Assembly (NCBI GenBank): GCA_963837165.1 | Contig: CAWIMD010000002.1 | Coordinates: 1,031,029-1,095,028, forward strand | DNA length: 64,000 nt | Source of the DNA: Vicinamibacteria bacterium | Lineage (GTDB): Bacteria; Acidobacteriota; Vicinamibacteria; Vicinamibacterales; JAENWD01 | Direction of reading: 5' to 3' | Shown: in pieces, positions 15,768 to 45,519 of the stretch | Numbering within the stretch: position 1 is the first letter of the stretch | How the letters are laid out: every line of letters begins with the position of its first letter | The notes under the pieces: model-generated | What the model was told of the DNA's origin: nothing | Databases searched by the model: none | The model's input: the letters and a program-made list of their open reading frames with translations, nothing else | Program-made: the position numbers and the translations under genes

Positions 15768-15823
15768 TCAATCGTCAATCGTCAATCGTCAATCGTCAAT
15801 CGTCAATCGTCAATGGTCAATGC
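15768..15823 (+). repeat. Family A heptamer array (TCAATCG x6 plus 2 degenerate units)
   Basis: Read directly. Fills the spacer between the two MCM subunit genes. Confidence 0.95.
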
Positions 15824-29425: not shown

Positions 29426-30808
29426 ATGCTCTCCCGCCGCCGATTTCTGGCCACGCTGGCCGCGTCGCTGACCGCAGGCCGCGGCGCGCTCCATGCCGGT
29501 CCGCGCTCCCCGGCGTGGCACACGCCCGTTCCCGAGGCGGGCTGGGGGTACGGACAGGCGTTCGGCCTGGCCGTACGCCAGAACCGCCGCCTCCCCGAGG
29601 GGCTGCCACCCTCGCTGCCGAGAGCGGTCCCGCGGCTGCCGCCGCTGGACGCCGCGCAGACCGGCCGGCTCCTGCGCGCCCGGTTCCCCGATCTGAAACA
29701 GCGATTCCTGTTCGAGTACTACCCGTGGTACGGCAACAACCCCTGGCGGCACTGGAACCAGTGGGACCGCGTCCCTCCGTACGACCTGGCGGTGACGTCC
29801 GTGCCGGCTCTCGGCCCGTACGATTCCCGCGACCCCGCCGTCGTCGAACGGCACGCCCGCTGGATCGCGGAGGCCGGCGTCGGGGGCGTGAACATCAGCT
29901 GGTGGGGCCGTGGGAGCTGGGAAGACCTCGCGACGCCGCTCGTGATGGACGTCATGCGCGATCACGGCCTCAAGGTGGCGTTCCACCTCGAGCCGTACAA
30001 CGATTCGCGCACCGAAAACTACGCCGGCGACATCCAGTACCTGCTGCGTGAGTACGGCGACAAGCGGCGGTGGGACTGCTTCCTGCTCCTGCGGGACGCC
30101 GGCGGCAGGGAAGTGCCGGTCTTCAAGTCGTTCGCGACCCTGCTGCCACAGACCTCGACCGACTGTCACGGCGTCACGTCCCGTGTGGCGCTCTGGCGTC
30201 CCGACGGAACGTGGCGCCGTCAGACGGACACGGTACGCGACACGTTCCGAGGCGACTTCGACCGGATCTACCTGCTCGCCGACTCCGGCGCGCTGGACCA
30301 CGTCCAGGTCTGCGGCTTCGACGGCATCGCGATGTACGACAGCTTTCTCAGACCGACGCGGTGGCCGGATCTGGCAAAGGCCTGCCGCGACTTCCACCTC
30401 GTGTACTCGTTCAACATCAACTCGGGATTCGACGGCATCGCCCAGCGCAACGTGCCGGCGGACTCCTGTTATCGGCCGACCCCGTTCGAGCCGCCGGCCA
30501 ACCTCGATTTCACCGATCCGGACCAGCGGGAGCTGGCGCGCCGGCTGTCGGAACACCGCATGGAGGAATCGTTCCGGGCCACGCTGATCGTGCAGACCGA
30601 CCCGGCGCTGACCGACACCGGCGACGGCTTCTTCCTCGTCTACATCAACTCGTTCAACGAGTGGCACGAGGGCACGGCGATGGAGCCGGCGCGCGATCAC
30701 GCGGCGCTGCTGCCGCAGGAGTCGCCGTACGGCTACCACAACGCCGCCCAGGGCAACTACCGGCTGGCGTACCTCACCGAACGGCTGGGCGAACTGCTCG
30801 CCGGTTAA
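29426..30808 (+). CDS. Glycoside hydrolase family 99-like (endo-alpha-mannosidase-like), Tat signal
   Basis: Twin-arginine signal MLSRRRFLATL. Motifs FEYYPWYG, ISWWGRG and NSFNEWHEGT resemble GH99. Confidence 0.62.
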   Translation: MLSRRRFLATLAASLTAGRGALHAGPRSPAWHTPVPEAGWGYGQAFGLAVRQNRRLPEGLPPSLPRAVPRLPPLDAAQTGRLLRARFPDLKQRFLFEYYPWYGNNPWRHWNQWDRVPPYDLAVTSVPALGPYDSRDPAVVERHARWIAEAGVGGVNISWWGRGSWEDLATPLVMDVMRDHGLKVAFHLEPYNDSRTENYAGDIQYLLREYGDKRRWDCFLLLRDAGGREVPVFKSFATLLPQTSTDCHGVTSRVALWRPDGTWRRQTDTVRDTFRGDFDRIYLLADSGALDHVQVCGFDGIAMYDSFLRPTRWPDLAKACRDFHLVYSFNINSGFDGIAQRNVPADSCYRPTPFEPPANLDFTDPDQRELARRLSEHRMEESFRATLIVQTDPALTDTGDGFFLVYINSFNEWHEGTAMEPARDHAALLPQESPYGYHNAAQGNYRLAYLTERLGELLAG

Positions 30809-30925
30809 TCCCCAGCCCCCCAGATCCCCAGATCCCCAGCCCCCCAGATCCCCAGATCCCCAGATCCCCAGATCCCCAGATCCCCAGATCCCCAGATCCC
30901 CAGATCCCCAGATCCCCAGATCCCC
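30809..30925 (-). repeat. Family B octamer array (12 x AGATCCCC plus 2 x AGCCCCCC on the plus strand; GGGGATCT on the minus strand)
   Basis: Read directly. Spans the entire spacer between the GH99 TAA (30806-30808) and the amidohydrolase TAG (30925-30927). Confidence 0.97.
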
Positions 30926-34102: not shown

Positions 34103-35224
34103 TTGACCGCGGTACAAGTAACCGATTACGATCTGGGCGCCGTGACGGACGAGTTCCGCAACTTCGGCGCCCCGACGCCCGGGCGCCCACGCGAGGTGGC
34201 CAGCGCTCCCACGATTCGGCAGGTGGCCGCCATGGCGGGCGTGTCCACGGCCACGGTCTCTCGAGTGCTGGCGCGGTCCGGCCGGGTGAGCCCCGATCTC
34301 GAAGCCCGCGTCCGGAGCGCCGCAAAGTCGCTCAACTACCAGCCCAATCGCGCCGCGCGCACCCTGCGCGCGCGCCAGGGCTCGACGGTCGGCGTCCTCA
34401 TTCCCGACATCCAGAACCTGTTCTTCACCGCCATCGTGCGCGGCATCGACGACGAGGTGCAGAAGCACGGGTACACGGTGCTGCTGGCCAACTCCGACGG
34501 CTCGCTCGAGCGCGAGCGCGTCTACCTCGATACGTTCCGCGCGGAAGGCGCGGCGGGCCTGCTGGTGATCCCCTCGCAGAACGACGAGCGCATCTACCGC
34601 GAGTTCCTGCAGACCGGCGTGCCGCTGGTGGTGCTCGATCGCACGGTGCACCTGCCCAACGTCGACCTCGTGTCGGTCACCAACAGCGAAGGATCCGCGC
34701 AGGCGGTCACGCACCTCGCCTCCCTCGGTCACCGGCGCATTGCGATGGTGGCGGGCCTGGAGTCGCACAACGTCGGGCGCGAACGGCGGGTCGGTTTCCT
34801 GGTGGGCCTCGAGTCGGCCGGAGTTCCCCTCGACCCGGCCCTGATCCGCGATGGTGGCTTCGAGCGCGAGCGTGCCCGTGTCGCCACGCACGAACTGCTC
34901 GGGCTGCCGGATCCCCCGACGGCAATCTTCAGCGCGAACAACACCATGTCGCTCGGCGTCCTGCAGGCGATCCACGAACGCGGCCTGCGGTCGCCGGAGG
35001 ACGTGTCGGTCGTGGGCTTCGACGACATGCCCTGGCAGGTGGCCACACAGCCGCCGCTCACGTGCATCTCGCAGCCGACCTACGACATCGGCGCGACGGC
35101 GGCACGGCTCCTGATCGCGCGCATCGGCGACCCCGACCGGCCCGTCCGGCGCGTGGTGCTCGAGACCGCCCTCGTCGTGCGCGGGTCGTCCGGGCCGCCG
35201 CCCCGCCGGAGCTCGGCCGCATGA
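34103..35224 (+). CDS. LacI family transcriptional regulator
   Basis: HTH TIRQVAAMAGVSTATVSRVL plus a periplasmic-binding-protein-like effector domain. The start is uncertain (TTG 34103 or GTG 34196). Confidence 0.85.
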   Translation: MTAVQVTDYDLGAVTDEFRNFGAPTPGRPREVASAPTIRQVAAMAGVSTATVSRVLARSGRVSPDLEARVRSAAKSLNYQPNRAARTLRARQGSTVGVLIPDIQNLFFTAIVRGIDDEVQKHGYTVLLANSDGSLERERVYLDTFRAEGAAGLLVIPSQNDERIYREFLQTGVPLVVLDRTVHLPNVDLVSVTNSEGSAQAVTHLASLGHRRIAMVAGLESHNVGRERRVGFLVGLESAGVPLDPALIRDGGFERERARVATHELLGLPDPPTAIFSANNTMSLGVLQAIHERGLRSPEDVSVVGFDDMPWQVATQPPLTCISQPTYDIGATAARLLIARIGDPDRPVRRVVLETALVVRGSSGPPPRRSSAA

Positions 35225-36309
35225 GGCACATCTCCCGCCGGGCCGCCCTCGTCGTCATCACGCTGTCGCTGCTGAGCGCGTGTTCCAGCGGCCGTCCCGA
35301 TCGTCCCGTGGTCGCGCTGGTCATGAAGTCGCTCGCCAACGAGTTCTTCAAGACGATGGAGGATGGGGCCAGGGCGCACCAGGCCGCCCATGCGGCGGAC
35401 TACGAGCTGGTGGCGACGGGCATCAAGGACGAGCAGGACGTCGCGCGCCAGATTGCAATCGTCGAGCAGATGATCGCGCGGGGCGTGGATGCCATCGTCC
35501 TCGCCCCGGCCGATTCGAAGGCCCTGGTCGGGGTGGTCAAGAAGGCGCTCGACGCCGGCATCGTCGTCGTGAACATCGACAACCGGCTCGACCGCGACGC
35601 GATGGTCGAGCGCGGCATCTCGGTCCCCTTCGTGGGCCCCGACAACCGGAAGGGCGCCCACGCGGTGGGCGCGTACGTGGCGAAGCGCCTGAAGCCCGGC
35701 GATCCGGTGGCCATCATCGAGGGCGCTCCCAACGCGTTCAACGGCGAACAGCGCCGCCTCGGGTTCGGCGAGGCCGCACGCGAGGCCGGTCTCGTCGTGG
35801 TCCGATCGCAGACGGCCTACTGGGAAACCGCGCGGGCCCACCAGGTGGTGACCGCCCTCATCAGTGAACGTCCTGACGTGAAGGCCATCCTCTGTGCGAA
35901 CGACAACATGGCTCTCGGCGCAGTGGCGGCGCTCAAGGCGGCGGGCAGGAGCGGTCAGGTGCTGGTCGCCGGCTTCGACAACATCTCCGCCGTGCACGAC
36001 CTCGTCCAGAGCGGCGGCGTGGTCGCCACCGCCGACCAGCACGGCGATCGGCTCGCCGTGTACGGCATCGAGTACGCGCTGGCCGGCCTGCAGGCACGGG
36101 GCACCACCCGCCCCGATCGTGAGACGCCCGTCGACCTGATCACGCCGCAGAACACAAAGGACACAAAGGACACAAAGGACACAAAGGACACAAGGAAAAG
36201 GACACGAAGGACACGAAGGACACGAAGGACACGAAGACCCAGAACCCATAAACCCACAACCCCACAAGCCCACAAACCCACAAGCCCCACAAACCCACAA
36301 ACCCATTAA
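35221..36309 (+). CDS. Sugar ABC transporter substrate-binding lipoprotein (ribose-binding type)
   Basis: ATG 35221 overlaps the LacI stop (ATGA). Lipobox LLSACSS and an RbsB-like fold. The last ~55 codons (NTKDTKDTKD...TRRTRRTRR...KPTSPTNPQTH) are read-through of repeat arrays C1 and H. Confidence 0.82.
   Translation: MRHISRRAALVVITLSLLSACSSGRPDRPVVALVMKSLANEFFKTMEDGARAHQAAHAADYELVATGIKDEQDVARQIAIVEQMIARGVDAIVLAPADSKALVGVVKKALDAGIVVVNIDNRLDRDAMVERGISVPFVGPDNRKGAHAVGAYVAKRLKPGDPVAIIEGAPNAFNGEQRRLGFGEAAREAGLVVVRSQTAYWETARAHQVVTALISERPDVKAILCANDNMALGAVAALKAAGRSGQVLVAGFDNISAVHDLVQSGGVVATADQHGDRLAVYGIEYALAGLQARGTTRPDRETPVDLITPQNTKDTKDTKDTKDTRKRTRRTRRTRRTRRPRTHKPTTPQAHKPTSPTNPQTH
36152..36237 (+). 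repeat. Family C nonamer array (ACACAAAGG x4, degenerate junction, ACACGAAGG x4)
   Basis: Read directly. Confidence 0.95.
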
Positions 36310-36336
36310 CCAACAAACCCATACCCTCCCAGACCC
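36238..36336 (+). repeat. Family H array (CCCACAAN-type, about 11 units of 7-9 nt)
   Basis: Reads CCCAGAA CCCATAAA CCCACAAC CCCACAAG CCCACAAA CCCACAAG CCCCACAAA CCCACAAA CCCATTAAC ... Confidence 0.9.
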
Positions 36337-36340
36337 AGCG

Positions 36341-37291
36341 ATGCGAAGGAGAATCGCGACCGAGAGTGCCGGTCTCGTCGGCGTGCTCGTGCTGCTTGCC
36401 GCGGCCTTCGGCGTGCTCACCAGCCACTTCCTCTCCTGGACGACCGCGCGCGCGCTTGCGAATGAGGCGCCGGATCTTCTGCTGGTCGCGACCGGGATGA
36501 CGCTCGTCATCCTGACCGGAGGCATCGACCTCTCCGTGGGCTCGCTCCTGGCGCTGTCGGGCGCCGTGTTCGGGCAGCTGATTGCGCGGAGCGGAGCCGC
36601 GCTGCCCCTGGCGGTGGCTGGGGCAATTGTCACCGGCGCGGGCTGCGGCTGGCTGAACGGCTGGATCACCGTGCGCTGGCGGTTGCCGTCGTTTCTCGTG
36701 ACGCTTGCGATGCTCGAAATGGCGCGCGGCGCGGCCTACCTGGTGACCTCCTCGCAGACGGTGTACCTCGGCGCGCGCGTCGACGTCGTATCGGCGCCGC
36801 TCGTCGCCGGCCTCGGGCCGCCGGTGCTGGTGGCAGTGGCGGTCGTGGCGCTCGGCCAGTGGACGCTCGACCGGCTCGTGTTCGGGCGACAGGTCTTCGC
36901 GGTGGGCACCAACGAGGAATCGGCGAGGCTGGCGGGCATCTCGCCGGGCCGTATCCGCATTGCCGTGTTCACGCTGTCGGGCCTGCTGGCCGGTGCGGCG
37001 GCAGTCGTGCAGGCCGGGCGGCTCGCGGCGGCCGATCCGAACGCGGGCATGGGGTTCGAGCTCGAGGCGATCGCCGCCGTGGTCATCGGCGGGACGAGCC
37101 TGACGGGCGGCCGCGGCTCGGTCGTCGCATCCGCGCTGGGGGCGCTGGTCATCCTGGTCCTCGGAGCCGGCCTCGCGCAGATGGGAGTCGGGGAGCCGAC
37201 CCGGCGCCTGGTGACGGGCGCGGTGATCGTGTCGGCGGCTGTTACGGACTATTACCGGGGAGGATGGGGGCACAGGAGGATGGGAGGATAG
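36341..37291 (+). CDS. Sugar ABC transporter permease (RbsC type)
   Basis: 10-TM BPD-type permease (LTGGIDLSVGS, AVGTNEESARLAGI). The stop TAG 37289-37291 lies inside repeat D1. Confidence 0.85.
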   Translation: MRRRIATESAGLVGVLVLLAAAFGVLTSHFLSWTTARALANEAPDLLLVATGMTLVILTGGIDLSVGSLLALSGAVFGQLIARSGAALPLAVAGAIVTGAGCGWLNGWITVRWRLPSFLVTLAMLEMARGAAYLVTSSQTVYLGARVDVVSAPLVAGLGPPVLVAVAVVALGQWTLDRLVFGRQVFAVGTNEESARLAGISPGRIRIAVFTLSGLLAGAAAVVQAGRLAAADPNAGMGFELEAIAAVVIGGTSLTGGRGSVVASALGALVILVLGAGLAQMGVGEPTRRLVTGAVIVSAAVTDYYRGGWGHRRMGG

Positions 37292-37325
37292 GAGGATAGG
37301 AGGATGGGAGGATAGGAGGATGGGG
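37260..37325 (+). repeat. Family D octamer array (GAGGATGG / GAGGATAG, 8 units)
   Basis: Read directly. Contains the rbsC-type stop and the ribokinase ATG. Confidence 0.95.
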
Positions 37326-38252
37326 CCCGCCATCGTTGTCGTCGGCAGCCTGAACGCGGATCTGTGCGTGCGGGTCCCGCGTTTCCCCACGCCCGGTGAG
37401 ACGATCGCCGGGCACGGCTTCACGGTCGTCCCTGGCGGCAAGGGCGCGAACCAGGCCTGCGCTGCGGGACGACTCGGCGGCCGCGTGGCAATGGCCGGGC
37501 AGGTCGGCGGCGACGCGCAGGGCCGGATGCTGCGCGACTCGCTCCGGCGTGCGCACGTGGACGTGAGCCTGGTGTCGGTGGACGGCGACGAGCCAACCGG
37601 CGTGGCGGTGATCACGGTGGATGCGTGGGGCGAGAACGAGATCGTGCTGGCCCCGGGCGCCAACGCCACGTTCACGGCCGGGCGCCTCGAGGGGGCCGAA
37701 GCCGTGATCCGCGGCGCGCGGGTCGTGCTCCTGCAGCTCGAGATCCCCATGGACACGGTGCTCCGGGCCGCGGCGACGGCGCGCGCGGCCGGCGTGAGGG
37801 TCGTCCTCGACCCCGCCCCCGCCGTCCCGGTCTCCGACGAACTGCTGGGGCTGGCCGATATCGTGACCCCCAATGAGGGCGAGCTGGCGCGCCTGGTCGG
37901 CGCCGCAGCGCACGAGCATCTGCCGGAACCGGCGATCGACGCGCAGGCCCGTGCGCTCCTGGCCCGAGGCTGCGCCATCGTGATCGTGAAGATGGGCGCC
38001 CGCGGCGCCCGTCTCGTGACGGCAGACGACGCCCGGACGTGGCCGTCGTTCCCAGTCACGGCGGTGGACACGACCGCGGCCGGAGATGCCTTCAACGGCG
38101 CGCTCGCCGTCGCGCTCGCTGACGAGCGCGCCCTCGGCGACGCCATGCGGTTCGCGACCGCCGCAGGCGCGCTGTCGGTGACGCGCCACGGCGCCCAGCC
38201 TTCGATGCCAGCCAGAGCGGACGTCGAACGTCTCCTCGCCACCGCGCGGTAG
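37320..38252 (+). CDS. rbsK: Ribokinase
   Basis: VVGSLNADL, GGKGANQA and DTTAAGDAFNGAL motifs. Confidence 0.9.
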   Translation: MGPAIVVVGSLNADLCVRVPRFPTPGETIAGHGFTVVPGGKGANQACAAGRLGGRVAMAGQVGGDAQGRMLRDSLRRAHVDVSLVSVDGDEPTGVAVITVDAWGENEIVLAPGANATFTAGRLEGAEAVIRGARVVLLQLEIPMDTVLRAAATARAAGVRVVLDPAPAVPVSDELLGLADIVTPNEGELARLVGAAAHEHLPEPAIDAQARALLARGCAIVIVKMGARGARLVTADDARTWPSFPVTAVDTTAAGDAFNGALAVALADERALGDAMRFATAAGALSVTRHGAQPSMPARADVERLLATAR

Positions 38253-38256
38253 GCGT

Positions 38257-38300
38257 TCAATCGTCAATCGTCAATCGTCAATCATCAATCAATTACAATC
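38257..38300 (+). repeat. Family A heptamer array (TCAATCG x3, TCAATCA x2, degenerate tail)
   Basis: Read directly. Lies between the ribokinase TAG and the oxidoreductase ATG. Confidence 0.92.
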
Positions 38301-38305
38301 CCGGC

Positions 38306-39403
38306 ATGCCTGTTCGCGTCGCCCTGATCGGCACCGGCAAGGTCGCCCTCGCCAACCATCTTCCCGGCGTGCAGCTGGCGCGGGACGCCAGGCTCACGGC
38401 CCTCTGCGACCCGAACGAGGACGCCCTCGCCGAGGCCGTGCGCGTGAGCGGCGTGACCCGCACGTGGACCGATCCGCTGACCCTGCTCCGCGAGGCCGAG
38501 GTGGACGCCGTCATCATCGCCACGCCGAACCGCGTGCACCGCGACGTCGCGGTGGCCGCGGCCGAGAGCGGCCGCCACGTGCTCTGCGAGAAGCCGCTCG
38601 CGCTCAGCGTCGAGCAGGCGGAGGACATGCTGGCCGCCGCCGAGCACGCGCGCGTGCGGCACATGACGGCCTTCACGTACCGGTTCGTGCCCGCCATGCA
38701 GTACATGCGGCACCTCGTGCGCAGCGGTGCCGTCGGCCAGCCGTGGCACTTCCGCGCGCAGCGCTTCCAGGACTGGGGACGCCGGGCGCTCGGCTGGCGC
38801 CAGCGGCTCTCCGAGGCGGGGTCGGGTGAGGTGGGTGACATGCTCTCGCACCGGCTCGACTTCGCGCACTATCTGGTCGGCCCGATCGCCCGCGTGATGG
38901 CGCTCACGACACGGGTGTGGGAGACGCGGCTGGACGAGGTCGGCCACGAGCAGCCGGCCGACACCGAGGACTGGGTGGGCTGCCTCGCCGAGTTCGCCTC
39001 GGGGGTCACCGGCGTGCTCGAGAGCGTCAAGACCGCGGCCGGGTACGCCGGCGGCGTCACGAGCCGCGACTGGTGCGAAGTGAACGGCAGCGACGGCGCG
39101 GTCGTCTACGACCTGTCGCATCCGCTGCGCGTGCTCGTTGCGCGAAAGGGCGGCACCTACGAGCCGGTGGACGTTCCGACGGAGTTCCGCAAGATCGCGG
39201 GGTCGCCGCGGGATCCGGACGCCGACCCGTGGCAGGCCTTCCGCTACGACCAGGACTACGAGTTCGTCGATGCCATTCACGCCGGCCGGCCGTGCGCGCC
39301 CTCGTTTCTGGACGGCCTGCGCGTGCAGGAAGTGATGGCGGCCATCCTGCAGTCGGCGCGGGAGCACCGCGCGATCGCGATCGAGGGGCATGGGCGAGTC
39401 TGA
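38306..39403 (+). CDS. Gfo/Idh/MocA family oxidoreductase
   Basis: N-terminal Rossmann motif VALIGTGKVA and an EKP motif (HVLCEKPLA). Confidence 0.85.
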   Translation: MPVRVALIGTGKVALANHLPGVQLARDARLTALCDPNEDALAEAVRVSGVTRTWTDPLTLLREAEVDAVIIATPNRVHRDVAVAAAESGRHVLCEKPLALSVEQAEDMLAAAEHARVRHMTAFTYRFVPAMQYMRHLVRSGAVGQPWHFRAQRFQDWGRRALGWRQRLSEAGSGEVGDMLSHRLDFAHYLVGPIARVMALTTRVWETRLDEVGHEQPADTEDWVGCLAEFASGVTGVLESVKTAAGYAGGVTSRDWCEVNGSDGAVVYDLSHPLRVLVARKGGTYEPVDVPTEFRKIAGSPRDPDADPWQAFRYDQDYEFVDAIHAGRPCAPSFLDGLRVQEVMAAILQSAREHRAIAIEGHGRV

Positions 39404-40970
39404 AACGGGCGTGATCTCGCCGACTCCGCGCGCCGCGCCCTGGCCCGGCTCCCACCGCATGCCGCGCTGGGACGTCGGCGAGCTGCCGGCGGCGCCCGTC
39501 TTCAGCTGGCGCACCGCCGCAGCCATGGTCGGACCTGGCCTGATCCTGGCGGGCTCGTCGATCGGCGGCGGCGAGTGGCTGCTCGGACCGGCCGTGGCCG
39601 CGCAGTACGGCGGCGCGCTCCTGTGGGTCGCCACGCTCAGCATCCTGAGCCAGGTCGTCTACAACATCGAGGCGAGCCGGTACGCCCTCTACACGGGCGA
39701 GCCGATCATGACCGGCAAGTTCCGCACGCTGCCGGGGCCGGGGGCGTGGCTGCTCGTCTACCTCCTGCTCGACCTCGGCGCACTGCTCCCCTACCAGATC
39801 GGCAGCGTGGCGACGCCCGTGCTCGCGATCTGGATGGGCCGCCTGCCGCAGCCCGGCGCGGTGGCCGGGCAGGCCGACCTGCTGCGGTGGCTCTCGTGTG
39901 GGCTGCTCGTGCTGGCGCTGCTGCCGCTGGCATTCGGCGGCAAGGTCTACCACTCGCTGCGCGCCATCATGACGGTGAAGATTGCCGTCGTGTTCGGGTT
40001 CCTGCTCTTTCTCGCCTTCGGATTCTCGACGCTGGCCACGTGGCAGGACATCGGCGTCGGCCTGCTGCGGTTCGGTGAGCTGCCCCTCGGCCAGGGCCAC
40101 ACGGAGAACCTGTTCGGCGCGCTCTGGCACGGCCGTCCCCTGCCGCGGCCCGACCGCGCGTCGCTGATGCTGATGACGGCGTTCGCCGCCATTGCCGGTG
40201 TCGGCGGGCTGGCCCAGACCAGCATCAGCAACTACACACGCGACCAGGGCTGGGGCATGGGATCGCAGGTCGGGGCCATTCCGAGCTTCGTCGGGGGCCG
40301 CGCCATCGAGCTGTCTCACGTCGGCAAGGTGTTCGAGCCGGGTCCCGCCGCTCGCGCCCGCTGGAGCGGCTGGGTGAGGCAGGTCCTGCGGGATCAGTGG
40401 TTCGTGTGGCTTCCCGCCTCCTTCATCGGTCTCGCCCTGCCCGCCATGCTGTCGGTGCAGTTCCTGCCCCGGGGCACCGTGGCCGATACCTGGGTGCTGG
40501 CGGGGCTGACCGCCGGCGGCGTGCGCGATCACCTCGGGGGACTGCTGGGCCTCGCCTGCTGGTACATGGTGCTCGTCTGCGGGATCCTGGTGATCGTGCC
40601 GAACAGCACGTCGGCCGCCGACGCGTTCATCCGGCGCTGGGTCGAGCTCTCGTGGACGGGCATCCCGGCGGTCAGGCGCTGGAACACACACGCGATCCGC
40701 ACGCTCTACTTCAGCGTGCTCGCCGGCTACCTCGCCGTGGGCGTCTTCTTCCTCTCCGTCGCGCGCCCGCTCGGGCTCATCGTCCTCTACGGCAACCTCG
40801 GCAACTTCGCGCTCGGCATCAGCTGCTGGCACGTGCTGTACGTGAATCTGACGCTGCTGCCGCCCGAAGTGCAGCCCGGGTGGGCCGCCCGGATTGGCCT
40901 CGCCCTCGGCGGCGCCTACTTCCTCGGGCTGGCGCTGCTCACGGCCGCCGTCGCGCTCGGGGCGGGGTAG
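39390..40970 (+). CDS. Nramp-related membrane transporter (non-canonical; DPGN motif not seen)
   Basis: About 11-12 TM segments. GPGLILAGSSIGGGEWLLGP resembles the Nramp TM1 region. The start overlaps the oxidoreductase end by 14 nt. Confidence 0.55.
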   Translation: MGESETGVISPTPRAAPWPGSHRMPRWDVGELPAAPVFSWRTAAAMVGPGLILAGSSIGGGEWLLGPAVAAQYGGALLWVATLSILSQVVYNIEASRYALYTGEPIMTGKFRTLPGPGAWLLVYLLLDLGALLPYQIGSVATPVLAIWMGRLPQPGAVAGQADLLRWLSCGLLVLALLPLAFGGKVYHSLRAIMTVKIAVVFGFLLFLAFGFSTLATWQDIGVGLLRFGELPLGQGHTENLFGALWHGRPLPRPDRASLMLMTAFAAIAGVGGLAQTSISNYTRDQGWGMGSQVGAIPSFVGGRAIELSHVGKVFEPGPAARARWSGWVRQVLRDQWFVWLPASFIGLALPAMLSVQFLPRGTVADTWVLAGLTAGGVRDHLGGLLGLACWYMVLVCGILVIVPNSTSAADAFIRRWVELSWTGIPAVRRWNTHAIRTLYFSVLAGYLAVGVFFLSVARPLGLIVLYGNLGNFALGISCWHVLYVNLTLLPPEVQPGWAARIGLALGGAYFLGLALLTAAVALGAG

Positions 40971-40974
40971 GCGA

Positions 40975-41017
40975 GGTTCACGGGTTCACGGTTCACGGTT
41001 CTCGGTTCTCGGTTCGG
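40975..41017 (+). repeat. Family E array (GGTTCACG/GTTCACG/GTTCTCG, 6 units)
   Basis: Reads TAG GCG AGGTTCACGGGTTCACGGTTCACGGTTCTCGGTTCTCGGTTCGG, directly after the transporter stop. Confidence 0.92.
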
Positions 41018-41352
41018 AAGCGCGCGACGATGTCGTCCGTGGCCTGGCGCAGGAGGCCCAGATCGCTGGCCACGGCGACGAAGGTGAAGCCCATTTCAAA
41101 GAAGGCCTTCGCGTCGGCCTCGACGGTCGCGAGGATGCCGATCGGGGTGCCCGCCTTCAGGGCGCGGGCACCGAGCTGCTCGATGGCCGCCCGCACCTCC
41201 GGGTGTCGGTTGTTGCCCAGGTGCCCCAGCGCCGGCCAGGTCGGACGGACCGATGAAGCCACCGTCCACACCCTCGACGGCCGCGATCTCCTCCATCTCT
41301 GCTTCCGGCCTTCGGCTATCGCGCGCTTGAACGTGTCGATCGGCAGCTCCAT
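40993..41352 (-). pseudogene. HpcH/HpaI aldolase remnant (internal deletion plus frameshift)
   Basis: The N-terminal 18 aa MELPIDTFKRAIAEGRKQ join directly (about 41296-41299) to EEIAAVEGVDGGFIGPSDLAG in another frame. The sequence then returns (about 41230-41238) to ALGHLGNNRHPEVRAAIEQLGARALKAGTPIGILATVEADAKAFFEMGFTFVAVASD. Roughly 145 central codons are missing. Confidence 0.72.
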
Positions 41353-41355
41353 CAG

Positions 41356-41439
41356 CCCCTATCCTCCCATCCTCCCATCCTCCCATCCTCCCATCCTCCC
41401 ATCCTCCCATCCTCCTATCCTCCTATCCTCCCATCCTCC
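41356..41439 (-). repeat. Family D octamer array (TCCCATCC/TCCTATCC on the plus strand, about 10 units)
   Basis: Read directly. The minus strand reads GGAGGATGG... ending 4 nt before the remnant ATG. Confidence 0.95.
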
Positions 41440-41455
41440 GCTGTATGATTCCCCG

Positions 41456-42118
41456 ATGATGATCTCACGCCAGCTCGCCCGATTCGTGCCCGCGGCCGGA
41501 CTCGGCCTGATCCTCGCGACGATGATGTCCGCCGTACCGGCAGCCGCACCAGCCGACGGCTGGGTGTCGCTCTTCGACGGCAAGACGCTGGACGGCTGGA
41601 AGGCCAGCGACGAGCCAGGCACCTTCCGCGTCGAGGACGGCGCCATCGTCGTCAATGGGCCGCGGTCGCACCTGTTCTACGTCGGGCCCGTCAACAACCA
41701 CGTGTTCACGAACTTCGAGTGGAAGGCCGACGTGATGACGTTTCCGGGGTCGAACTCGGGAATGTACGTCGACACCGAGTACCAGGAGACCGGCTGGCCC
41801 TCGAAGGGCTACGAAGTCCAGGTCAACAACTCGCACACCGATCCGATCCGGACGGGAAGCCTCTACGGAATCGTCAACGTGCTCGAGCGGTTCGTGCCGG
41901 ACAACGAGTGGTTCACGCAGGACATCACCGTCCAGGGCAAGCGCGTCGTGGTGAAGATCAACGACCGGGTCGTGGTGGACTACACGGAGCCCGACAACCC
42001 GCTGCGGGGCGCCGATCAGGCCAACCGCCGCATCGCCCCCGGCACCTTCGCCCTGCAGGGGCACGACCCGAACAGCAAGGTCCTCTACAAGAACATCATG
42101 GTTCGGACTCTGCCGTAG
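41456..42118 (+). CDS. DUF1080 (3-keto-disaccharide hydrolase-like) secreted protein
   Basis: WVSLFDGKTLDGWK...ALQGHDPNSKVLYKNI is characteristic of DUF1080. Signal peptide present. Confidence 0.8.
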   Translation: MMISRQLARFVPAAGLGLILATMMSAVPAAAPADGWVSLFDGKTLDGWKASDEPGTFRVEDGAIVVNGPRSHLFYVGPVNNHVFTNFEWKADVMTFPGSNSGMYVDTEYQETGWPSKGYEVQVNNSHTDPIRTGSLYGIVNVLERFVPDNEWFTQDITVQGKRVVVKINDRVVVDYTEPDNPLRGADQANRRIAPGTFALQGHDPNSKVLYKNIMVRTLP

Positions 42119-42121
42119 CGA

Positions 42122-42164
42122 GGTTCACGGTTCCCGGTTCACGGTTCCCGGTTCTCGGTTCTCG
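42122..42164 (+). repeat. Family E heptamer array (GGTTCAC GGTTCCC GGTTCAC GGTTCCC GGTTCTC GGTTCTC)
   Basis: Reads TAG CG AGGTTCAC..., directly after the DUF1080 stop. Confidence 0.95.
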
Positions 42165-42165
42165 T

Positions 42166-42189
42166 GGCCGAACTGAAGTTCGGCCCTAC
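42166..42189 (-). repeat. REP-like element c: [GGCCGAAC TGAA GTTCGGCC]-CTAC (GTAG on the minus strand)
   Basis: Perfect 8-bp stem. The minus strand reads GTAG-GGCCGAAC-TTCA-GTTCGGCC. Confidence 0.85.
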
Positions 42190-42218
42190 GTACGGTCCAG
42201 CGACCTGACCCCTGGCCA

Positions 42219-42246
42219 TGATCCCTGATCCCTGATCTCTGACCCA
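42219..42246 (-). repeat. Family G heptamer array (TGATCCC x2 plus 2 degenerate units; GGGATCA on the minus strand)
   Basis: Read directly. Ends 2 nt before the NIPSNAP stop codon. Confidence 0.8.
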
Positions 42247-42248
42247 CA

Positions 42249-42677
42249 CTAGCGAAGCGGCGAATAGTCCGTCGGCGACAGGAACACCGAGTCCACTTTC
42301 TCGACGAGCTTGCCGTCCTTCTCCGAGTCCGTCTTGACGGCAATCCACTCGGGATCCTTGCCGAAGGCCTCCCAGTCGGCCTTGCGCGCCTCGAGGCTGG
42401 GATACGCCAGGATGTAGACGAGGTTGTTCTCGGCCGCGGCGCCCGTCGTGCCGTCGATCGGCACCCAGTAACCGATCACGTCCATCCCGTGCTTCTTGAA
42501 GATGGCCGTCGTGTGGTCGCGGAAGCGCGCGTGGAGCGCCTCGAGCTTCCCGGGCGCGGCGTGATACGTCCTGAGCTCGAACACGCGCCCGCCCGGCGCG
42601 GTGGACGGCGGCGCCTGCGCCGCAGCGGCAGCTGCCATCCCGAACACCATCAGCAACGCCAATCCCATTCCGCGCAT
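42249..42677 (-). CDS. NIPSNAP family protein with signal peptide
   Basis: RVFELRTYHAAPGKLEALHARF...VYILAYPSLEARKADWEAF. ATG 42677 was chosen. The ORF track start at 42716 (MFFVFFVF) is translation of repeat C2. Confidence 0.7.
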   Translation of the reverse strand: MRGMGLALLMVFGMAAAAAAQAPPSTAPGGRVFELRTYHAAPGKLEALHARFRDHTTAIFKKHGMDVIGYWVPIDGTTGAAAENNLVYILAYPSLEARKADWEAFGKDPEWIAVKTDSEKDGKLVEKVDSVFLSPTDYSPLR

Positions 42678-42692
42678 CAGTTGCCTCCCCGG

Positions 42693-42738
42693 GAACACAA
42701 AGAACACAAAGAACACAAAGGCACAAAGAACACAAAGG
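42693..42738 (+). repeat. Family C variant nonamer array (GAACACAAA x4 plus GGCACAAA)
   Basis: Read directly. Lies between the GH2 stop (42741) and the NIPSNAP start. Confidence 0.9.
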
Positions 42739-42740
42739 CG

Positions 42741-45519
42741 CTATCTCAACTCCGTCCTGGGGTGGCACCGATCGCTCCCGACGTAATCGATCAGCCCGTT
42801 GACCAGCCTGGTGGTGAACGGATCCTTGCCATACGCGCCGGTGTCGAACGTCGAGATCACGACCGTGCCCTTGCCGAGCGTGAACTGCGCCGTGACGGCG
42901 TGGTTGTCGTTCAGCCAGCCGTAGAACTCGCCCGCCAGGACGTCGCCCGCCCGCCAGGCCGATTCGGGCACGCCCGCCAGCAGCCAGCGCGGCGTGGCGG
43001 CCGCCGCTTCGCCGCCGGTGATCGGGCCCACCGCCACCGCCGCGAACGGCGGGCTCTGCGGATTGACCCACGGGAAGTTGCTCACCCAGTTCCCGTCCAG
43101 CTCGTTGCGTCGCGCCACCGCGGAGAGGGTCGGCGTGGCGGCGAACGTGAACAGGACGCCGCGCGGCACGATCAGGGCCCGGCCGCCCGCCTCCACGAAC
43201 CGGCGGACCTCCGCGTCGAGCGTCGCGCTCACGACCGTCGTGCCTGGTGTCAGCCCGCCGGCCTTCCACGGCAGCATCGTCAGCGCGCCGTGCGGATCGT
43301 GAAGGGTCACCCGCGCCGGCGTCGCCGCCGCTCGCGGGTAGACAAAGAGGTCCTGGACGTTCCTCGCCATCACACCGCCGTCCCTGCCGTGCAGCTCGAG
43401 GCCAATGCGAAGCCGTGTGGGCACGGCCACGTCGGGCAGGTCGAGCATGACGTCTGCCAGATGCGCGAGGCCGGCCCGCGGCGCGGCGGCGGTCACGGGC
43501 AGCTCGCCATGACGCTCGCCCGCCGTCCATCGGAGCACGCCCCCGGACGGATCGGCCGCACTGTATCGGGACAGGTCCACCGACAGCGTCACGCGCTCTC
43601 CCCCGAGCGCGCTCGCCCGGTCCACCGCCGGTAGCAGCACGTCGTCCTGCTGCAGGTCCGACAGGAGCTCGCCGTAAATCTTGGGCTTTCGCCACATGTT
43701 CATGAGCCCGTTGGCTTCCCAGTTGATGTCGGTGAACTCCGTGATGACGTAGCCGCGGATGGACGCGTGCCGGCGAATCGTCTCGATCTCGTGTTTGAGG
43801 CTCTGGAACTGCCGCCACTGGGCCGCGTGCGCGAGCGCGCGATAGTCGGTGAAGAGCCGGTCGAAGCCGAACGCCGTGAATCGATCGAAGAGGCCCGCCG
43901 GACGCGTGATCGCCCGGCCGTCGAAGTCGCGGGGGAACCACCAGGGCAGCTCGTCGGGCAGGTCCGGCAGGCCCCAGTTGCCGAATTCCGACACGACCAG
44001 CGGCTCGTTCCCGGTCCGTCGTGCATCGCCGTGGGGACTGAAGGACCACGCCGGGCGCGATGCGAAATCGGCCACCCAGCGGTCCCAGCGGTCGGCGTTG
44101 TCGGGAATGGAGTAGGACCTGGTGGAAGTCGTCGATGTCGGTCGCGACGTGAAAGTTGTCGCAGCAGGCGCTGTTGTCCACGATGAGCCGCCCCAGCGGG
44201 GCGGTCCGCACCCTGGCCGCCTCGAACCACTCCGCCAGTCCGGCCCGCTCGTCGGCCTTCGTCATGTCGATGCCCCAGGCCTCGTTGATGAGGCTCTGGA
44301 TGACGATGGCCGGATGGTTCCAGTCGCGCGCGACCATCGCGTCGAAGATCGTCCGCCCTCGCGCCACGGAGGCCGTCGTCCAGTCGTCCCAGCTCGGCAC
44401 CTCGTACCAGACGAGCATGCCGGTTTCGTCGGCGGCCTCGAGGTACGTCGGATCGCACACCTTGATGTGGCAGCGAAGCAGGTTCAGCCCGAGGGCCCGC
44501 CCCTTCTTCATCTCGTCCACCACGTAGGCCTTGTCGGGGGTGCTGTAGATCGACTGCGGGTAGAAATCCTGATCGAGCGCCGCCCGCATGTAGAACGGCT
44601 CGCCGTTCAGGAGGAACTGCCCGTCGCGCGTCGTGAACTCCCGAAACCCGAACCGGGCGGTGACGTGGTCGGCCACGGGGCCATCCAGTGACACCGCGGC
44701 CGTGTACAGCTCGGGCGTCGCGGGCGACCACAGACGCGGATTCGACACGTTGGCCCAGACGTCCGCGTGGCCGGGCTTGGCCACGGGCACCGCCGGGACC
44801 GTCGCGACGGCCCGACCATCCGGCCCGACCAACGTCACGTGAAGAGCGGCCGGCCGGCCTGGCGCCGTGCCGGAGATGACGACCTCGAGTGAGACGGCAC
44901 CGGAGTTCTTCGGCGTCACGCGCACCGACTCGACGTACATCGCCGGCCGGACGTCCAGCCAGACCGGCTGCCAGAGCCCCGCGTTCTCGATGTACCAGTT
45001 CTGCTTGCCGCGGGGCAGCTGTTCATACGGCATGTCCGGGAAGCGCGGCGTGCCGCCGGGCGGCGTCGGCGGCGGATCGACGACGCGCACGAGCAGGTCG
45101 TTCGGGCCCGGCTTCGCGTGTTCCGTCACGTCGAGGGTGAACGGCGTGTAGGCGCCCTCATGGGTGCCGGCGCGCTGGCCGTTGACGAAGACCTCGGCGG
45201 CGTAGTCCACGGCGCCGAAGCGCAGGAGGACGTGCCGGGACCGCCCCGAGGCCGGCGCCGTGAAGGTGGCCCGATACCACGCCACGCCGAAGTAGTCGCG
45301 CAGGTCGTCGAACTGCGCGTTCCAGGAACGGCCGTCCTTGGCGGCACGCCAGCCGTCCGGGGGCAGCGTCGACGCCGTCAGGGTCCCGGCCGGATCGGTC
45401 AGGAGCGTCCAGCCGCTGATGCGCACGGGCTCGGCGCCGGCGGTCGCAGCCGCCAACAGCGCCAGCGCGGCGCTCGCCGCCCACACCAGGACCCGCTGTT
45501 CGACCCCTACACTCCGCAC
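42741..45519 (-). CDS. Glycoside hydrolase family 2-like, secreted; one frame break
   Basis: The N-terminal sugar-binding, Ig and TIM regions (VAWYR..., LRCHIKVCDPTYLEAADETGMLVWYEVPSW) read in ORF 42139..45519 up to DIDDFHQ. YSIPDNADRWDRWVADFASRP... then continues in ORF 42741..44075. The break is near 44112-44120. Confidence 0.78.

What the first reader, a model, noticed from the sequence alone, without database searches (positions are those of the whole stretch)
37260..37325. Family D is a tandem Shine-Dalgarno / ATG / TAG cassette used for stop-restart coupling
The units alternate GAGGATGG (contains ATG) and GAGGATAG (contains TAG). Every unit contains AGGAGG or GGAGG. Because the period is 8, each ATG is preceded by a perfect AGGAGG with an 8-nt spacer.

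The permease ORF stops at a TAG of one unit (37289-37291). Ribokinase starts at the ATG of the last unit (37320-37322). The inverted copy at 41356-41439 presents the same sense orientation, with its last unit ending 4 nt upstream of the ATG (41352) of the minus-strand HpcH remnant. Copy-number change would shift which stop and start are in register, which could act as a translational-coupling rheostat.
Basis: partly seen in the sequence, partly recalled or inferred. Interest (0 to 1): 0.62.

Follow-up and report, generated by a model that had tools for sequence, protein, structure and literature searches.

The report
Ordinary intergenic 8-base tandem repeat
The repeat is real and does supply the stop of one gene and abut the start of the next. 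It is one of many short tandem-repeat families that fill the gene junctions of this soil bacterium, and comparative evidence gives no support for a dedicated ribosome-binding or coupling device.

Summary
A period-8 array sits at window 37260-37323: eight units, one of them degenerate. A second, inverted array of ten units sits at 41360-41439. Neither is a chance match. The permease ORF ends at a TAG inside the first array. The ribokinase ATG (37320) lies in phase with the last unit.

The functional reading does not hold up.
- At least ten other 7-9-base array families with no Shine-Dalgarno content fill neighbouring junctions, in both orientations.
- In relatives at about 70% identity or less, this junction is a 4-base ATGA stop/start overlap. 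The array therefore replaced a coupled junction.
- Sister lineages carry an orthologous period-8 array with different units (GGGGCATR, GGGRAATR), so GGAGG is not the conserved feature.
- Among 88 GGAGGATR arrays in other genomes, the downstream gene is on the same strand in 30 cases and on the opposite strand in 31. Almost none abut a start codon.
- Genes of this clade show SD-like motifs at about the chance rate.
- The second array lies in a divergent gap, upstream of a gutted HpcH pseudogene.

Best reading: a slippage-prone long simple-sequence repeat whose stop and start use is incidental. Between two strains that are 99.3% identical, 43 of 46 indel positions fall in arrays. The array may still act incidentally as the ribokinase ribosome-binding site; this was not tested.

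The parts
37260..37323 (+). Family D array 1. Eight 8-nt units: GAGGATGG, GGGCACAG (degenerate), GAGGATGG, GAGGATAG, GAGGATAG, GAGGATGG, GAGGATAG, GAGGATGG.
   Evidence: The same array is present in independent assemblies L001 and L093/L094.
36341..37291 (+). Sugar ABC permease ORF (BPD_transp_2). Its last ~10 residues (GGWGHRRMGG*) are coded by the array. The stop is TAG 37289-37291.
   Evidence: The tail is not conserved among relatives.
37320..38252 (+). Ribokinase (PfkB). Its ATG is positionally orthologous to the ancestral start: MGPAIVVVGS here against MTPAIIVVGS in L088.
41360..41439 (-). Family D array 2. Ten units on the minus strand, in the order G, A, A, G, G, G, G, G, G, A. It fills most of a 103-nt divergent gap.
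40993..41352 (-). HpcH/HpaI aldolase remnant. Only residues ~1-18 and ~181-253 of the 262-aa orthologue remain. The C-terminal TENREP* is coded by the GGTTCAC array.
41456..42118 (+). Secreted 3-keto-disaccharide hydrolase (DUF1080) gene. It lies 16 nt from the C-rich side of array 2.
36152..36336 (+). Two other arrays, ACACAAAGG x10 and AACCCACA x10, in the SBP-permease junction of the same operon. The SBP ORF reads through them (…TKDTKDTKD…).
   Evidence: Relatives overlap these genes by 14 nt.
38257..38290 (+). TCAATCG x5 array in the ribokinase-oxidoreductase junction. The same family occurs at 15768 and 51596 between minus-strand genes, that is, in the opposite orientation relative to transcription.

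Best explanation
Family D is one family of long simple-sequence repeats, meaning tandem arrays of 7-9-nt units. Such arrays occupy a large share of the gene junctions of this high-GC, uncultured soil bacterium.

At this locus an array arose in the ancestor of a small clade of 'MG…' ribokinases. In other relatives the same junction is a 4-nt ATGA stop/start overlap. Since then the array has evolved in concert, by slippage or unequal exchange. That gave GGAGGATR units here and GGGGCATR or GGGRAATR units in sister lineages.

The permease frame now runs into the array and stops at the first in-frame TAG, which adds a non-conserved ~10-residue tail. The ribokinase keeps its ancestral start position, which is in phase with the last unit.

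The Shine-Dalgarno look belongs to this lineage's unit sequence and is a by-product. The GGAGG 8 nt upstream of the ATG may incidentally help initiation, but the array is not a dedicated coupling cassette or rheostat.

Shown: the anatomy, the derived state, unit turnover, indel hypervariability of arrays, and the lack of orientation bias elsewhere.
Inferred: slippage with concerted evolution as the mechanism, and near-neutrality.
For: -: at least 14 arrays of period 5-12 with three or more copies lie in 64 kb, from ten or more unit families. Nearly all are at gene junctions.
- the TCAATCG and ACACAAAGG-like families occur in both orientations relative to transcription.
- in L087-L091 (68-70% aa identity) the operon is syntenic, the permease and ribokinase overlap by ATGA, and there is no array.
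- only 4 of ~125 homologues start MG. Most start MT, MS or MN, as an ATGA overlap would predict.
- the orthologous period-8 arrays are GGAGGATR x7 in L093, GGGGCATR x~4 in L092 and GGGRAATR x~7 in L095. The permease tails all differ.
- W and L001 are 99.29% identical. 43 of 46 indel positions and 8 of 42 substitutions lie in arrays, which are 3.8% of the bases.
- across 88 GGAGGATR arrays in other genomes the downstream gene is on the same strand in 30 cases and the opposite strand in 31. Co-directional pairs split 10 sense to 17 antisense, and 9 arrays lie between convergent genes. Only about 2 lie within 20 nt of a same-strand start.
- SD-like 4-mers lie upstream of 10/43 and 15/50 starts, about the chance rate.
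- array 2 precedes a pseudogene.
Against: - The array has been kept at this junction in the sense orientation in four lineages down to ~70% protein identity. A TAG stop for the permease and an ATG-GGG start are always present, which could reflect constraint rather than descent alone.
- Identical units at a second locus 4 kb away, and in many other genomes, are not explained by purely local slippage.
- The orientation survey was done on other genomes with crude GC3- and length-based gene calls, not on this genome's other family D arrays.
- There are no expression or ribosome data.
- The 16S anti-SD of this organism was not seen.
Confidence: 0.65

Rival explanations
1. The array is a selected tandem SD/ATG/TAG cassette. 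It terminates permease translation and re-loads ribosomes on ribokinase, and copy number tunes the coupling.
For: - TAG and ATG of array units are the real ORF boundaries, and a GGAGG core lies 8 nt before the ATG.
- The array strand shows no Watson-Crick pairing within the repeat units, so it could be accessible to ribosomes.
- The architecture is retained in L001 and L093.
- After loss of the ATGA overlap, some new initiation signal is needed.
Against: - The ancestral ATGA coupling was destroyed, not created.
- Orthologous arrays lack GGAGG.
- There is no orientation bias elsewhere.
- Other families without SD content occupy equivalent positions.
- The clade is SD-poor.
- Array 2 lies in a divergent gap before a pseudogene.
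- Unit-number changes cannot alter the ribokinase frame.
Confidence: 0.1
2. G-quadruplex-forming repeat, like the GGGNATC and GGGGA(C/T)T repeats of Xanthomonas and Nostoc. The conserved property would be phased G-tracts that fold in DNA or RNA and affect transcription, mRNA stability or replication.
For: - G-tracts, the ATR ending and period 8 are what the orthologous arrays share: GGGAGGAT, GGGGCATR and GGGRAATR.
- ViennaRNA with its G-quadruplex term predicts stacked two-tetrad quadruplexes. Energies move from -17.6 to -33.7 and from -3.3 to -30.5 kcal/mol.
- In the survey many arrays begin 0-10 nt after the stop of a same-strand ORF. This matches the positional preference reported by Rehm et al. 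2015 (PMC4692102, abstract).
- The window also holds a GGGGATCT family.
Against: - Most other families in the window cannot form G4 (TCAATCG, ACACAAAGG, AACCCACA, GGTTCAC), yet they behave alike.
- There is no preference for four units.
- The 'flush with stop' pattern is partly mechanical, because TAG recurs in all frames within three A-units.
- It is a prediction only.
Confidence: 0.12
3. Array of binding sites for a sequence-specific RNA- or DNA-binding protein, forming a post-transcriptional network as proposed for TAACTGA heptamer repeats in Beggiatoaceae.
For: - Identical units recur at several loci within one genome, and multi-locus families occur in many phyla.
- MacGregor 2015 (PMC4679880) describes heptamer arrays just upstream of start codons in SD-poor contexts.
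Against: - Ten or more different unit families in one window would need as many binders.
- Units drift between close lineages at the same junction.
- Both orientations occur, and so do convergent gaps.
Confidence: 0.06
4. Assembly or sequencing artefact in low-complexity sequence.
For: The 1-nt difference between W and L001 inside the array could be a long-read error.
Against: The array is present at the same junction in at least four independent assemblies from different samples and platforms: L001, L093, Logan contig L094, plus the diverged arrays in L092 and L095.
Confidence: 0.01

Closest known systems
Long simple sequence repeats (LSSR) with 5-11-nt units, Mrazek, Guo & Shah 2007, as summarised in PMC4679880
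   Same: Head-to-tail arrays of 7-9-nt units, far longer than chance. Mostly non-coding. Many per genome in large-genome environmental bacteria. Copy number is polymorphic, as expected from slippage.
   Different: - The density here is extreme, with an array at a large fraction of junctions, including junctions that are 4-nt overlaps in relatives.
- Several families recur at multiple loci.
- The lineage (uncultured; nearest named homologue Vicinamibacteria) is, to my knowledge, not among those described.
TAACTGA heptamer direct repeats of marine Beggiatoaceae, Cyanobacteria and Bacteroidetes (MacGregor 2015, PMC4679880)
   Same: Short tandem arrays immediately upstream of start codons, where the RBS would be, in genomes where canonical SD sites are rare. 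The units contain stop codons. The phylogenetic distribution is patchy.
   Different: - The unit is different and there are many families rather than one.
- There is no forward-orientation bias in my survey, whereas most BOGUAY repeats are in forward orientation upstream of starts.
G-quadruplex-forming GGGNATC / GGGGA(C/T)T repeats of Xanthomonas and Nostoc (Rehm et al. 2015, PMC4692102)
   Same: G-rich 7-8-nt units. [quoted passage not shown] Variable unit number. The window also has a GGGGATCT family.
   Different: Family D has G3/G2 tracts, so at best two-tetrad quadruplexes. There is no preference for four units. G4 formation was not shown.
Translational coupling by overlapping stop/start (ATGA) with or without an upstream SD
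   Same: A stop followed by a nearby start inside one operon, with GGAGG 8 nt upstream of the ATG.
   Different: The stop and start are 28 nt apart here (20 nt in L001 and L093). The true ATGA overlap is the ancestral state that the array replaced.
Cyanobacterial STRR (short tandemly repeated repetitive) heptamers
   Same: Multi-family, multi-locus intergenic tandem arrays of short units, of unknown function.
   Different: Different phylum and unit length (8 rather than 7). STRR properties are recalled from my own knowledge, apart from passing mentions.

Membership tests
SD-dependent stop-restart (translational coupling) element | SD core complementary to the anti-SD, 5-10 nt upstream of the downstream start | tested here: met
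   GGAGG at 37307-37311 lies 8 nt before ATG 37320. The anti-SD of this organism was not seen.
SD-dependent stop-restart (translational coupling) element | Upstream stop overlapping the downstream start or within a few nt of it | tested here: not met
   The stop at 37291 and the start at 37320 leave a 28-nt gap. Relatives without the array have an ATGA overlap.
SD-dependent stop-restart (translational coupling) element | The functional motif (GGAGG) is conserved at orthologous junctions | tested here: not met
   L092 units are GGGGCATR and L095 units are GGGRAATR.
SD-dependent stop-restart (translational coupling) element | Family members lie preferentially in sense orientation just upstream of starts | tested here: not met
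   the downstream gene is same-strand in 30 cases and opposite in 31, and only about 2 arrays lie within 20 nt of a same-strand start. The survey covers other genomes with crude gene calls.
SD-dependent stop-restart (translational coupling) element | The host uses SD-led initiation | tested here: inconclusive
   Loose SD 4-mers lie upstream of 10/43 and 15/50 starts, near my estimate of the chance rate. The sample is small and some starts are uncertain.
Long simple sequence repeat (5-11-nt unit) | Tandem head-to-tail copies of a 5-11-nt unit, longer than chance | tested here: met
   8 and 10 units, with 0 matches in 100 shuffles.
Long simple sequence repeat (5-11-nt unit) | Length polymorphism between close strains (slippage) | tested here: met
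   43 of 46 indel positions between W and L001 are in arrays. Family D itself differs by 1 nt plus 1 substitution, and L093 has one unit fewer.
Long simple sequence repeat (5-11-nt unit) | Predominantly non-coding location, many arrays per genome | tested here: met
Phase-variable contingency locus | A change in unit number switches a gene on or off, by frameshift in the ORF or by promoter spacing | tested here: not met
   The array is upstream of the ribokinase ATG. In the permease it affects only the dispensable tail, and both ORFs are intact in W, L001 and L093. No promoter-like site lies nearby.
G-quadruplex-forming repeat (Rehm et al. 2015 type) | Four or more phased G-tracts able to fold into G4 | tested here: inconclusive
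   G3/G2 tracts are present, and ViennaRNA's gquad model predicts two-tetrad G4s. There is no biophysical test.
G-quadruplex-forming repeat (Rehm et al. 2015 type) | Strong preference for four units | tested here: not met
   Unit numbers range from 3 to 27 across loci, and are 8 and 10 here.
TAACTGA-type repeat (MacGregor 2015) | Unit TAACTGA | tested here: not met
   The unit is GGAGGATR.

The most novel reading that the evidence does not exclude
The arrays may not be passive slippage products. They could be laid down by an unknown templated or targeted process acting at gene boundaries. Four observations fit this.
- A whole clade has converted ATGA-overlapped junctions into array-filled ones.
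- Identical units recur at unlinked loci.
- The same GGAGGATR unit recurs in Gemmatimonadota, Bacteroidota, Planctomycetota, Cyanobacteria, Chloroflexota and others.
- In Gemmatimonadota it forms inverted array pairs, G-rich arm always 5', which in at least one case (L037) extend a terminator-like hairpin.

In that reading, family D would be one product of a repeat-seeding system that reshapes operon junctions.
Probability: 0.1. Interest if true: 0.8.

Novelty: new member of a known kind. Interest (0 to 1): 0.33.

Why it matters
As a translational device it does not stand, so it should not be carried forward as one.

What is worth keeping is the comparative picture. A lineage of uncultured soil bacteria has replaced tight, overlapping operon junctions with hypervariable 7-9-nt arrays that rewrite protein C-termini and 5' leaders. 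That bears on three things:
- how operon architecture tolerates repeat invasion;
- gene calling in such MAGs, where array-coded tails and starts occur;
- the unresolved origin and role of long simple-sequence repeats in environmental bacteria.

Tried and rejected
Led nowhere:
- An exact-protein look-up of the ribokinase found nothing.
- No public sequencing runs could be listed for 36900-37700, so read-level copy-number heterogeneity could not be tested.
- Rfam found nothing in the window.
- The promoter and terminator scan of 36000-42400 found no promoter-like site and one terminator-like site, no more than in shuffles.
- Two metagenome-contig scans with degenerate junction patterns returned 0 hits, although L092 should match. 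That sample is evidently not in the collection.
- Cluster-member names gave no taxonomy.
- A literature search for such repeats in Vicinamibacteria found nothing relevant.

Considered and rejected:
- Phase-variation switch. The array cannot shift the ribokinase frame.
- Structure-free ribosome landing pad as a general role for the arrays. Family D and the ACACAAAGG array show little or no predicted pairing, but the CGATTGA arrays fold better than shuffles (z about -3). Several arrays also lie between convergent genes.
- Origin by expansion of a native SD. Array-less relatives have no GGAGG at the junction, and sister arrays lack it too.
- The second array as independent support. A divergent gap gives no orientation information, and the gene it precedes is a remnant.

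Full report
**Observation**

Window 37260-37323 holds eight head-to-tail 8-nt units: GAGGATGG, GGGCACAG, GAGGATGG, GAGGATAG, GAGGATAG, GAGGATGG, GAGGATAG, GAGGATGG. TRF reports a period of 8 with 8.4 copies. The two-unit pattern GGAGGATRGGAGGAT occurs 14 times in the window against 0 in 100 shuffles. All 14 lie here or in a second array at 41360-41439, whose G-rich strand is the minus strand.

The ORF at 36341-37291 is a BPD_transp_2 sugar permease that ends at TAG 37289-37291, inside unit 4. The ORF at 37320-38252 is a PfkB ribokinase whose ATG lies in the last unit. No ATG, GTG or TTG lies upstream in that frame.

- The units do not alternate, and unit 2 is degenerate.
- The hexamer with an 8-nt spacer before the ribokinase ATG is GGGAGG. 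The perfect AGGAGG abuts the ATG.
- Array 2 lies in a 103-nt divergent gap between a minus-strand HpcH fragment (start 41352) and a plus-strand DUF1080 / 3-keto-disaccharide hydrolase gene (start 41456). Its 'sense' orientation therefore carries no information.

**Context in the window**

The window has 70% G+C and is crowded with short-period arrays. The families include TCAATCG (15768, 38257, 51596), GGGGATCT/ATCCCCAG (18932, 30808), GGTTCAC (40975, 42122), GTGAACCC, AGAACCG, ACACAAAGG-like (36152, 42693, 53113, 60231), AACCCACA and CCTGATC, among others.

Set against a GC3-based gene map, nearly all sit in gene junctions and are often flush with both neighbouring ORFs. The same family occurs in either orientation relative to transcription. 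TCAATCG, for example, lies between plus-strand genes at 38257 and between minus-strand genes at 15768 and 51596.

Within this one operon the pattern holds at every junction.
- The SBP-permease junction holds ACACAAAGG x10 plus AACCCACA x10.
- The permease-ribokinase junction holds family D.
- The ribokinase-oxidoreductase junction holds TCAATCG x5.

Family D is thus one of ten or more families that behave alike, and the only one with SD-like content.

**Relatives**

A near-identical strain (L001, ENA metagenome contig) and more distant relatives were recovered through the neighbouring oxidoreductase and through ribokinase homologues. The operon LacI-SBP-permease-ribokinase-GFO/IDH oxidoreductase is syntenic in all of them.

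In L087-L091 (ribokinase 68-70% identical) there is no array. The permease stop and the ribokinase start overlap as ATGA, SBP and permease overlap by 14 nt, and HpcH is an intact 262-aa gene. Most of the ~125 ribokinase homologues begin MT, MS or MN, as expected when the second codon starts with the A of ATGA. Only four begin MG.

All the MG lineages that could be read carry a period-8 array at this junction.
- L093/L094 (77%): GGAGGATR x7, permease tail …FYRGGWADRRMGG*.
- L092 (73%): GGGGCATR x~4, tail …YYRENGAMGA*.
- L095 (70%): GGGRAATR x~7, tail …YYRGNRGIGK*.

Four conclusions follow.
- The array is derived, and it replaced a genuinely coupled junction.
- It is inherited and evolves in concert.
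- What is conserved is the period, the G-tracts, the ATR ending and the ATG-GGG start, not GGAGG.
- The array-coded permease tail is not conserved.

The ribokinase ATG is positionally orthologous to the ancestral one (MGPAIVVVGS against MTPAIIVVGS), so the start assignment is sound.

**Variability**

W and L001 are 99.29% identical over 12.3 kb. Of 46 indel positions, 43 fall in arrays, which make up 3.8% of the bases. So do 8 of 42 substitutions. Examples are +24 nt in ATCCCCAG and a net -14 nt in ACACAAAGG. Family D differs by a 1-nt insertion and one substitution. That lengthens the permease tail to 319 aa and shortens the stop-start gap from 28 to 20 nt, with both ORFs intact. This is the behaviour of slippage-prone simple repeats.

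They come from Gemmatimonadota (most), Bacteroidota, Planctomycetota, Acidobacteriota, Cyanobacteria, Chloroflexota, Armatimonadota and others.

With GC3- and length-based gene calls, the gene downstream of the G-rich strand is on the same strand for 30 arrays and on the opposite strand for 31. Arrays between co-directional genes are sense in 10 cases and antisense in 17. Nine lie between convergent genes. Only about two lie within 20 nt of a same-strand start, and at least one of those is an ORF-calling artefact inside an inverted pair.

The commonest close association is with the stop of an upstream same-strand ORF (0-10 nt). That is partly mechanical, because TAG recurs in every frame within three A-units.

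The survey is on other genomes and the gene calls are crude. A 30:31 split is nonetheless robust to that.

**SD usage**

SD-like 4-mers at -18 to -3 occur before 10 of 43 starts in the window. They occur before 15 of 50 called genes in L001 and relatives. My estimate for this composition is roughly 20-25% by chance. Well-defined starts such as the permease (…cccagacccagcgATG) and the oxidoreductase (…acaatcccggcATG) have none. The clade therefore looks SD-poor, although the sample is small.

**Array 2**

The fragment it precedes keeps only residues ~1-18 and ~181-253 of the 262-aa orthologue, so it is a pseudogene.

**Structure**

Neither family D array shows Watson-Crick pairing within its repeat units. 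With flanks, folding energy is not better than shuffles (z -0.8 for array 1, where only the flanks pair across the array, and -0.1 for array 2). With ViennaRNA's G-quadruplex term, stacked two-tetrad G4s are predicted. Other families differ: CGATTGA folds at z about -3 and ACACAAAGG is unusually unstructured at z +4. No single structural property unites the families.

**Known relatives**

The class matches the long simple sequence repeats with 5-11-nt units of Mrazek et al. 2007, as summarised in PMC4679880. Two described cases are closest.
- TAACTGA heptamer arrays lie just upstream of start codons in SD-poor Beggiatoaceae, Cyanobacteria and Bacteroidetes, and were proposed to act post-transcriptionally (PMC4679880).
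- G-quadruplex-forming GGGNATC repeats occur in Xanthomonas and Nostoc. [quoted passage not shown]

**Verdict**

The sequence observation is real and partly mis-described. The proposed function is not supported by comparative evidence and fails its own refutation criterion. The best reading (0.65) is a lineage-specific, slippage-driven simple-sequence array that invaded an ATGA junction, with incidental stop and start use. Incidental RBS activity of the GGAGG is possible but untested.

It is a new member of a known kind. The residual interest lies in the clade-wide replacement of overlapping junctions by arrays, and in the cross-phylum recurrence of the unit.

Noticed in passing
L005 6074-6165, L037 5563-5711, L077 6066-6200 and about 22 other loci (L002, L007, L014, L017, L019, L021, L042, L048, L051, L057, L061, L063, L075, L076, L082, L083 and others): In Gemmatimonadota and the unclassified MAG cluster4_bin.51, GGAGGATA arrays are followed 10-50 nt later by the inverted array (TCCTATCC/TCCTATCA)n. 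The G-rich arm is always 5' (25 of 90 arrays, none the other way round). Predicted hairpins are very strong, with z of -12.6, -6.9 and -4.8. In L037 the arms extend a GC-rich hairpin that looks like an intrinsic terminator.
   Followed up: partly
window 35212-36309, L001 6925-7941: The sugar-binding protein ORF reads through the ACACAAAGG and AACCCACA arrays (…TKDTKDTKDTKDTRKRTRRTRR…). It ends at different array-internal stops in W and L001, so its C-terminal tail is array-coded and strain-variable.
   Followed up: partly
window 34103-38252 and L087, L088, L091, L092, L095: The conserved operon LacI-SBP-permease-ribokinase has no ABC ATPase gene, either in the window or in any relative.
   Followed up: no
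window 40975-41015 and 42122-42161: GGTTCAC arrays lie in convergent gaps. Two minus-strand ORFs, the HpcH remnant and the ORF ending at 42139, both end in the same array-coded tail …TENREP*.
   Followed up: no
window 30808-30925: The ATCCCCAG x15 array exactly fills the gap between two convergent ORF ends (stops at 30808 and 30925). It is 24 nt longer in L001.
   Followed up: partly
window 42139-45519 (minus strand): A 1126-aa ORF starts like a glycoside hydrolase (…[32 protein letters not shown]…) and then runs into arginine-rich nonsense. GC3 analysis places the coding frame elsewhere from about 44075 downward. This is probably a frameshifted gene or an assembly error.
   Followed up: no
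L087 6930-7060, L091 6930-7090: The ribokinase-oxidoreductase gap of relatives holds a REP-like palindrome (gtagggccgaac…gttcggccctac) followed by CAGCACT heptamer arrays. L093 has CCAACCTCTC-type units there and L095 has CACCCGGCAC-type units. The same junction therefore carries a different array family in each lineage.
   Followed up: partly
window 39390-40970: A 526-aa multi-pass membrane protein with no Pfam match lies between the oxidoreductase and the HpcH remnant. It is absent from the syntenic L088 locus.
   Followed up: no
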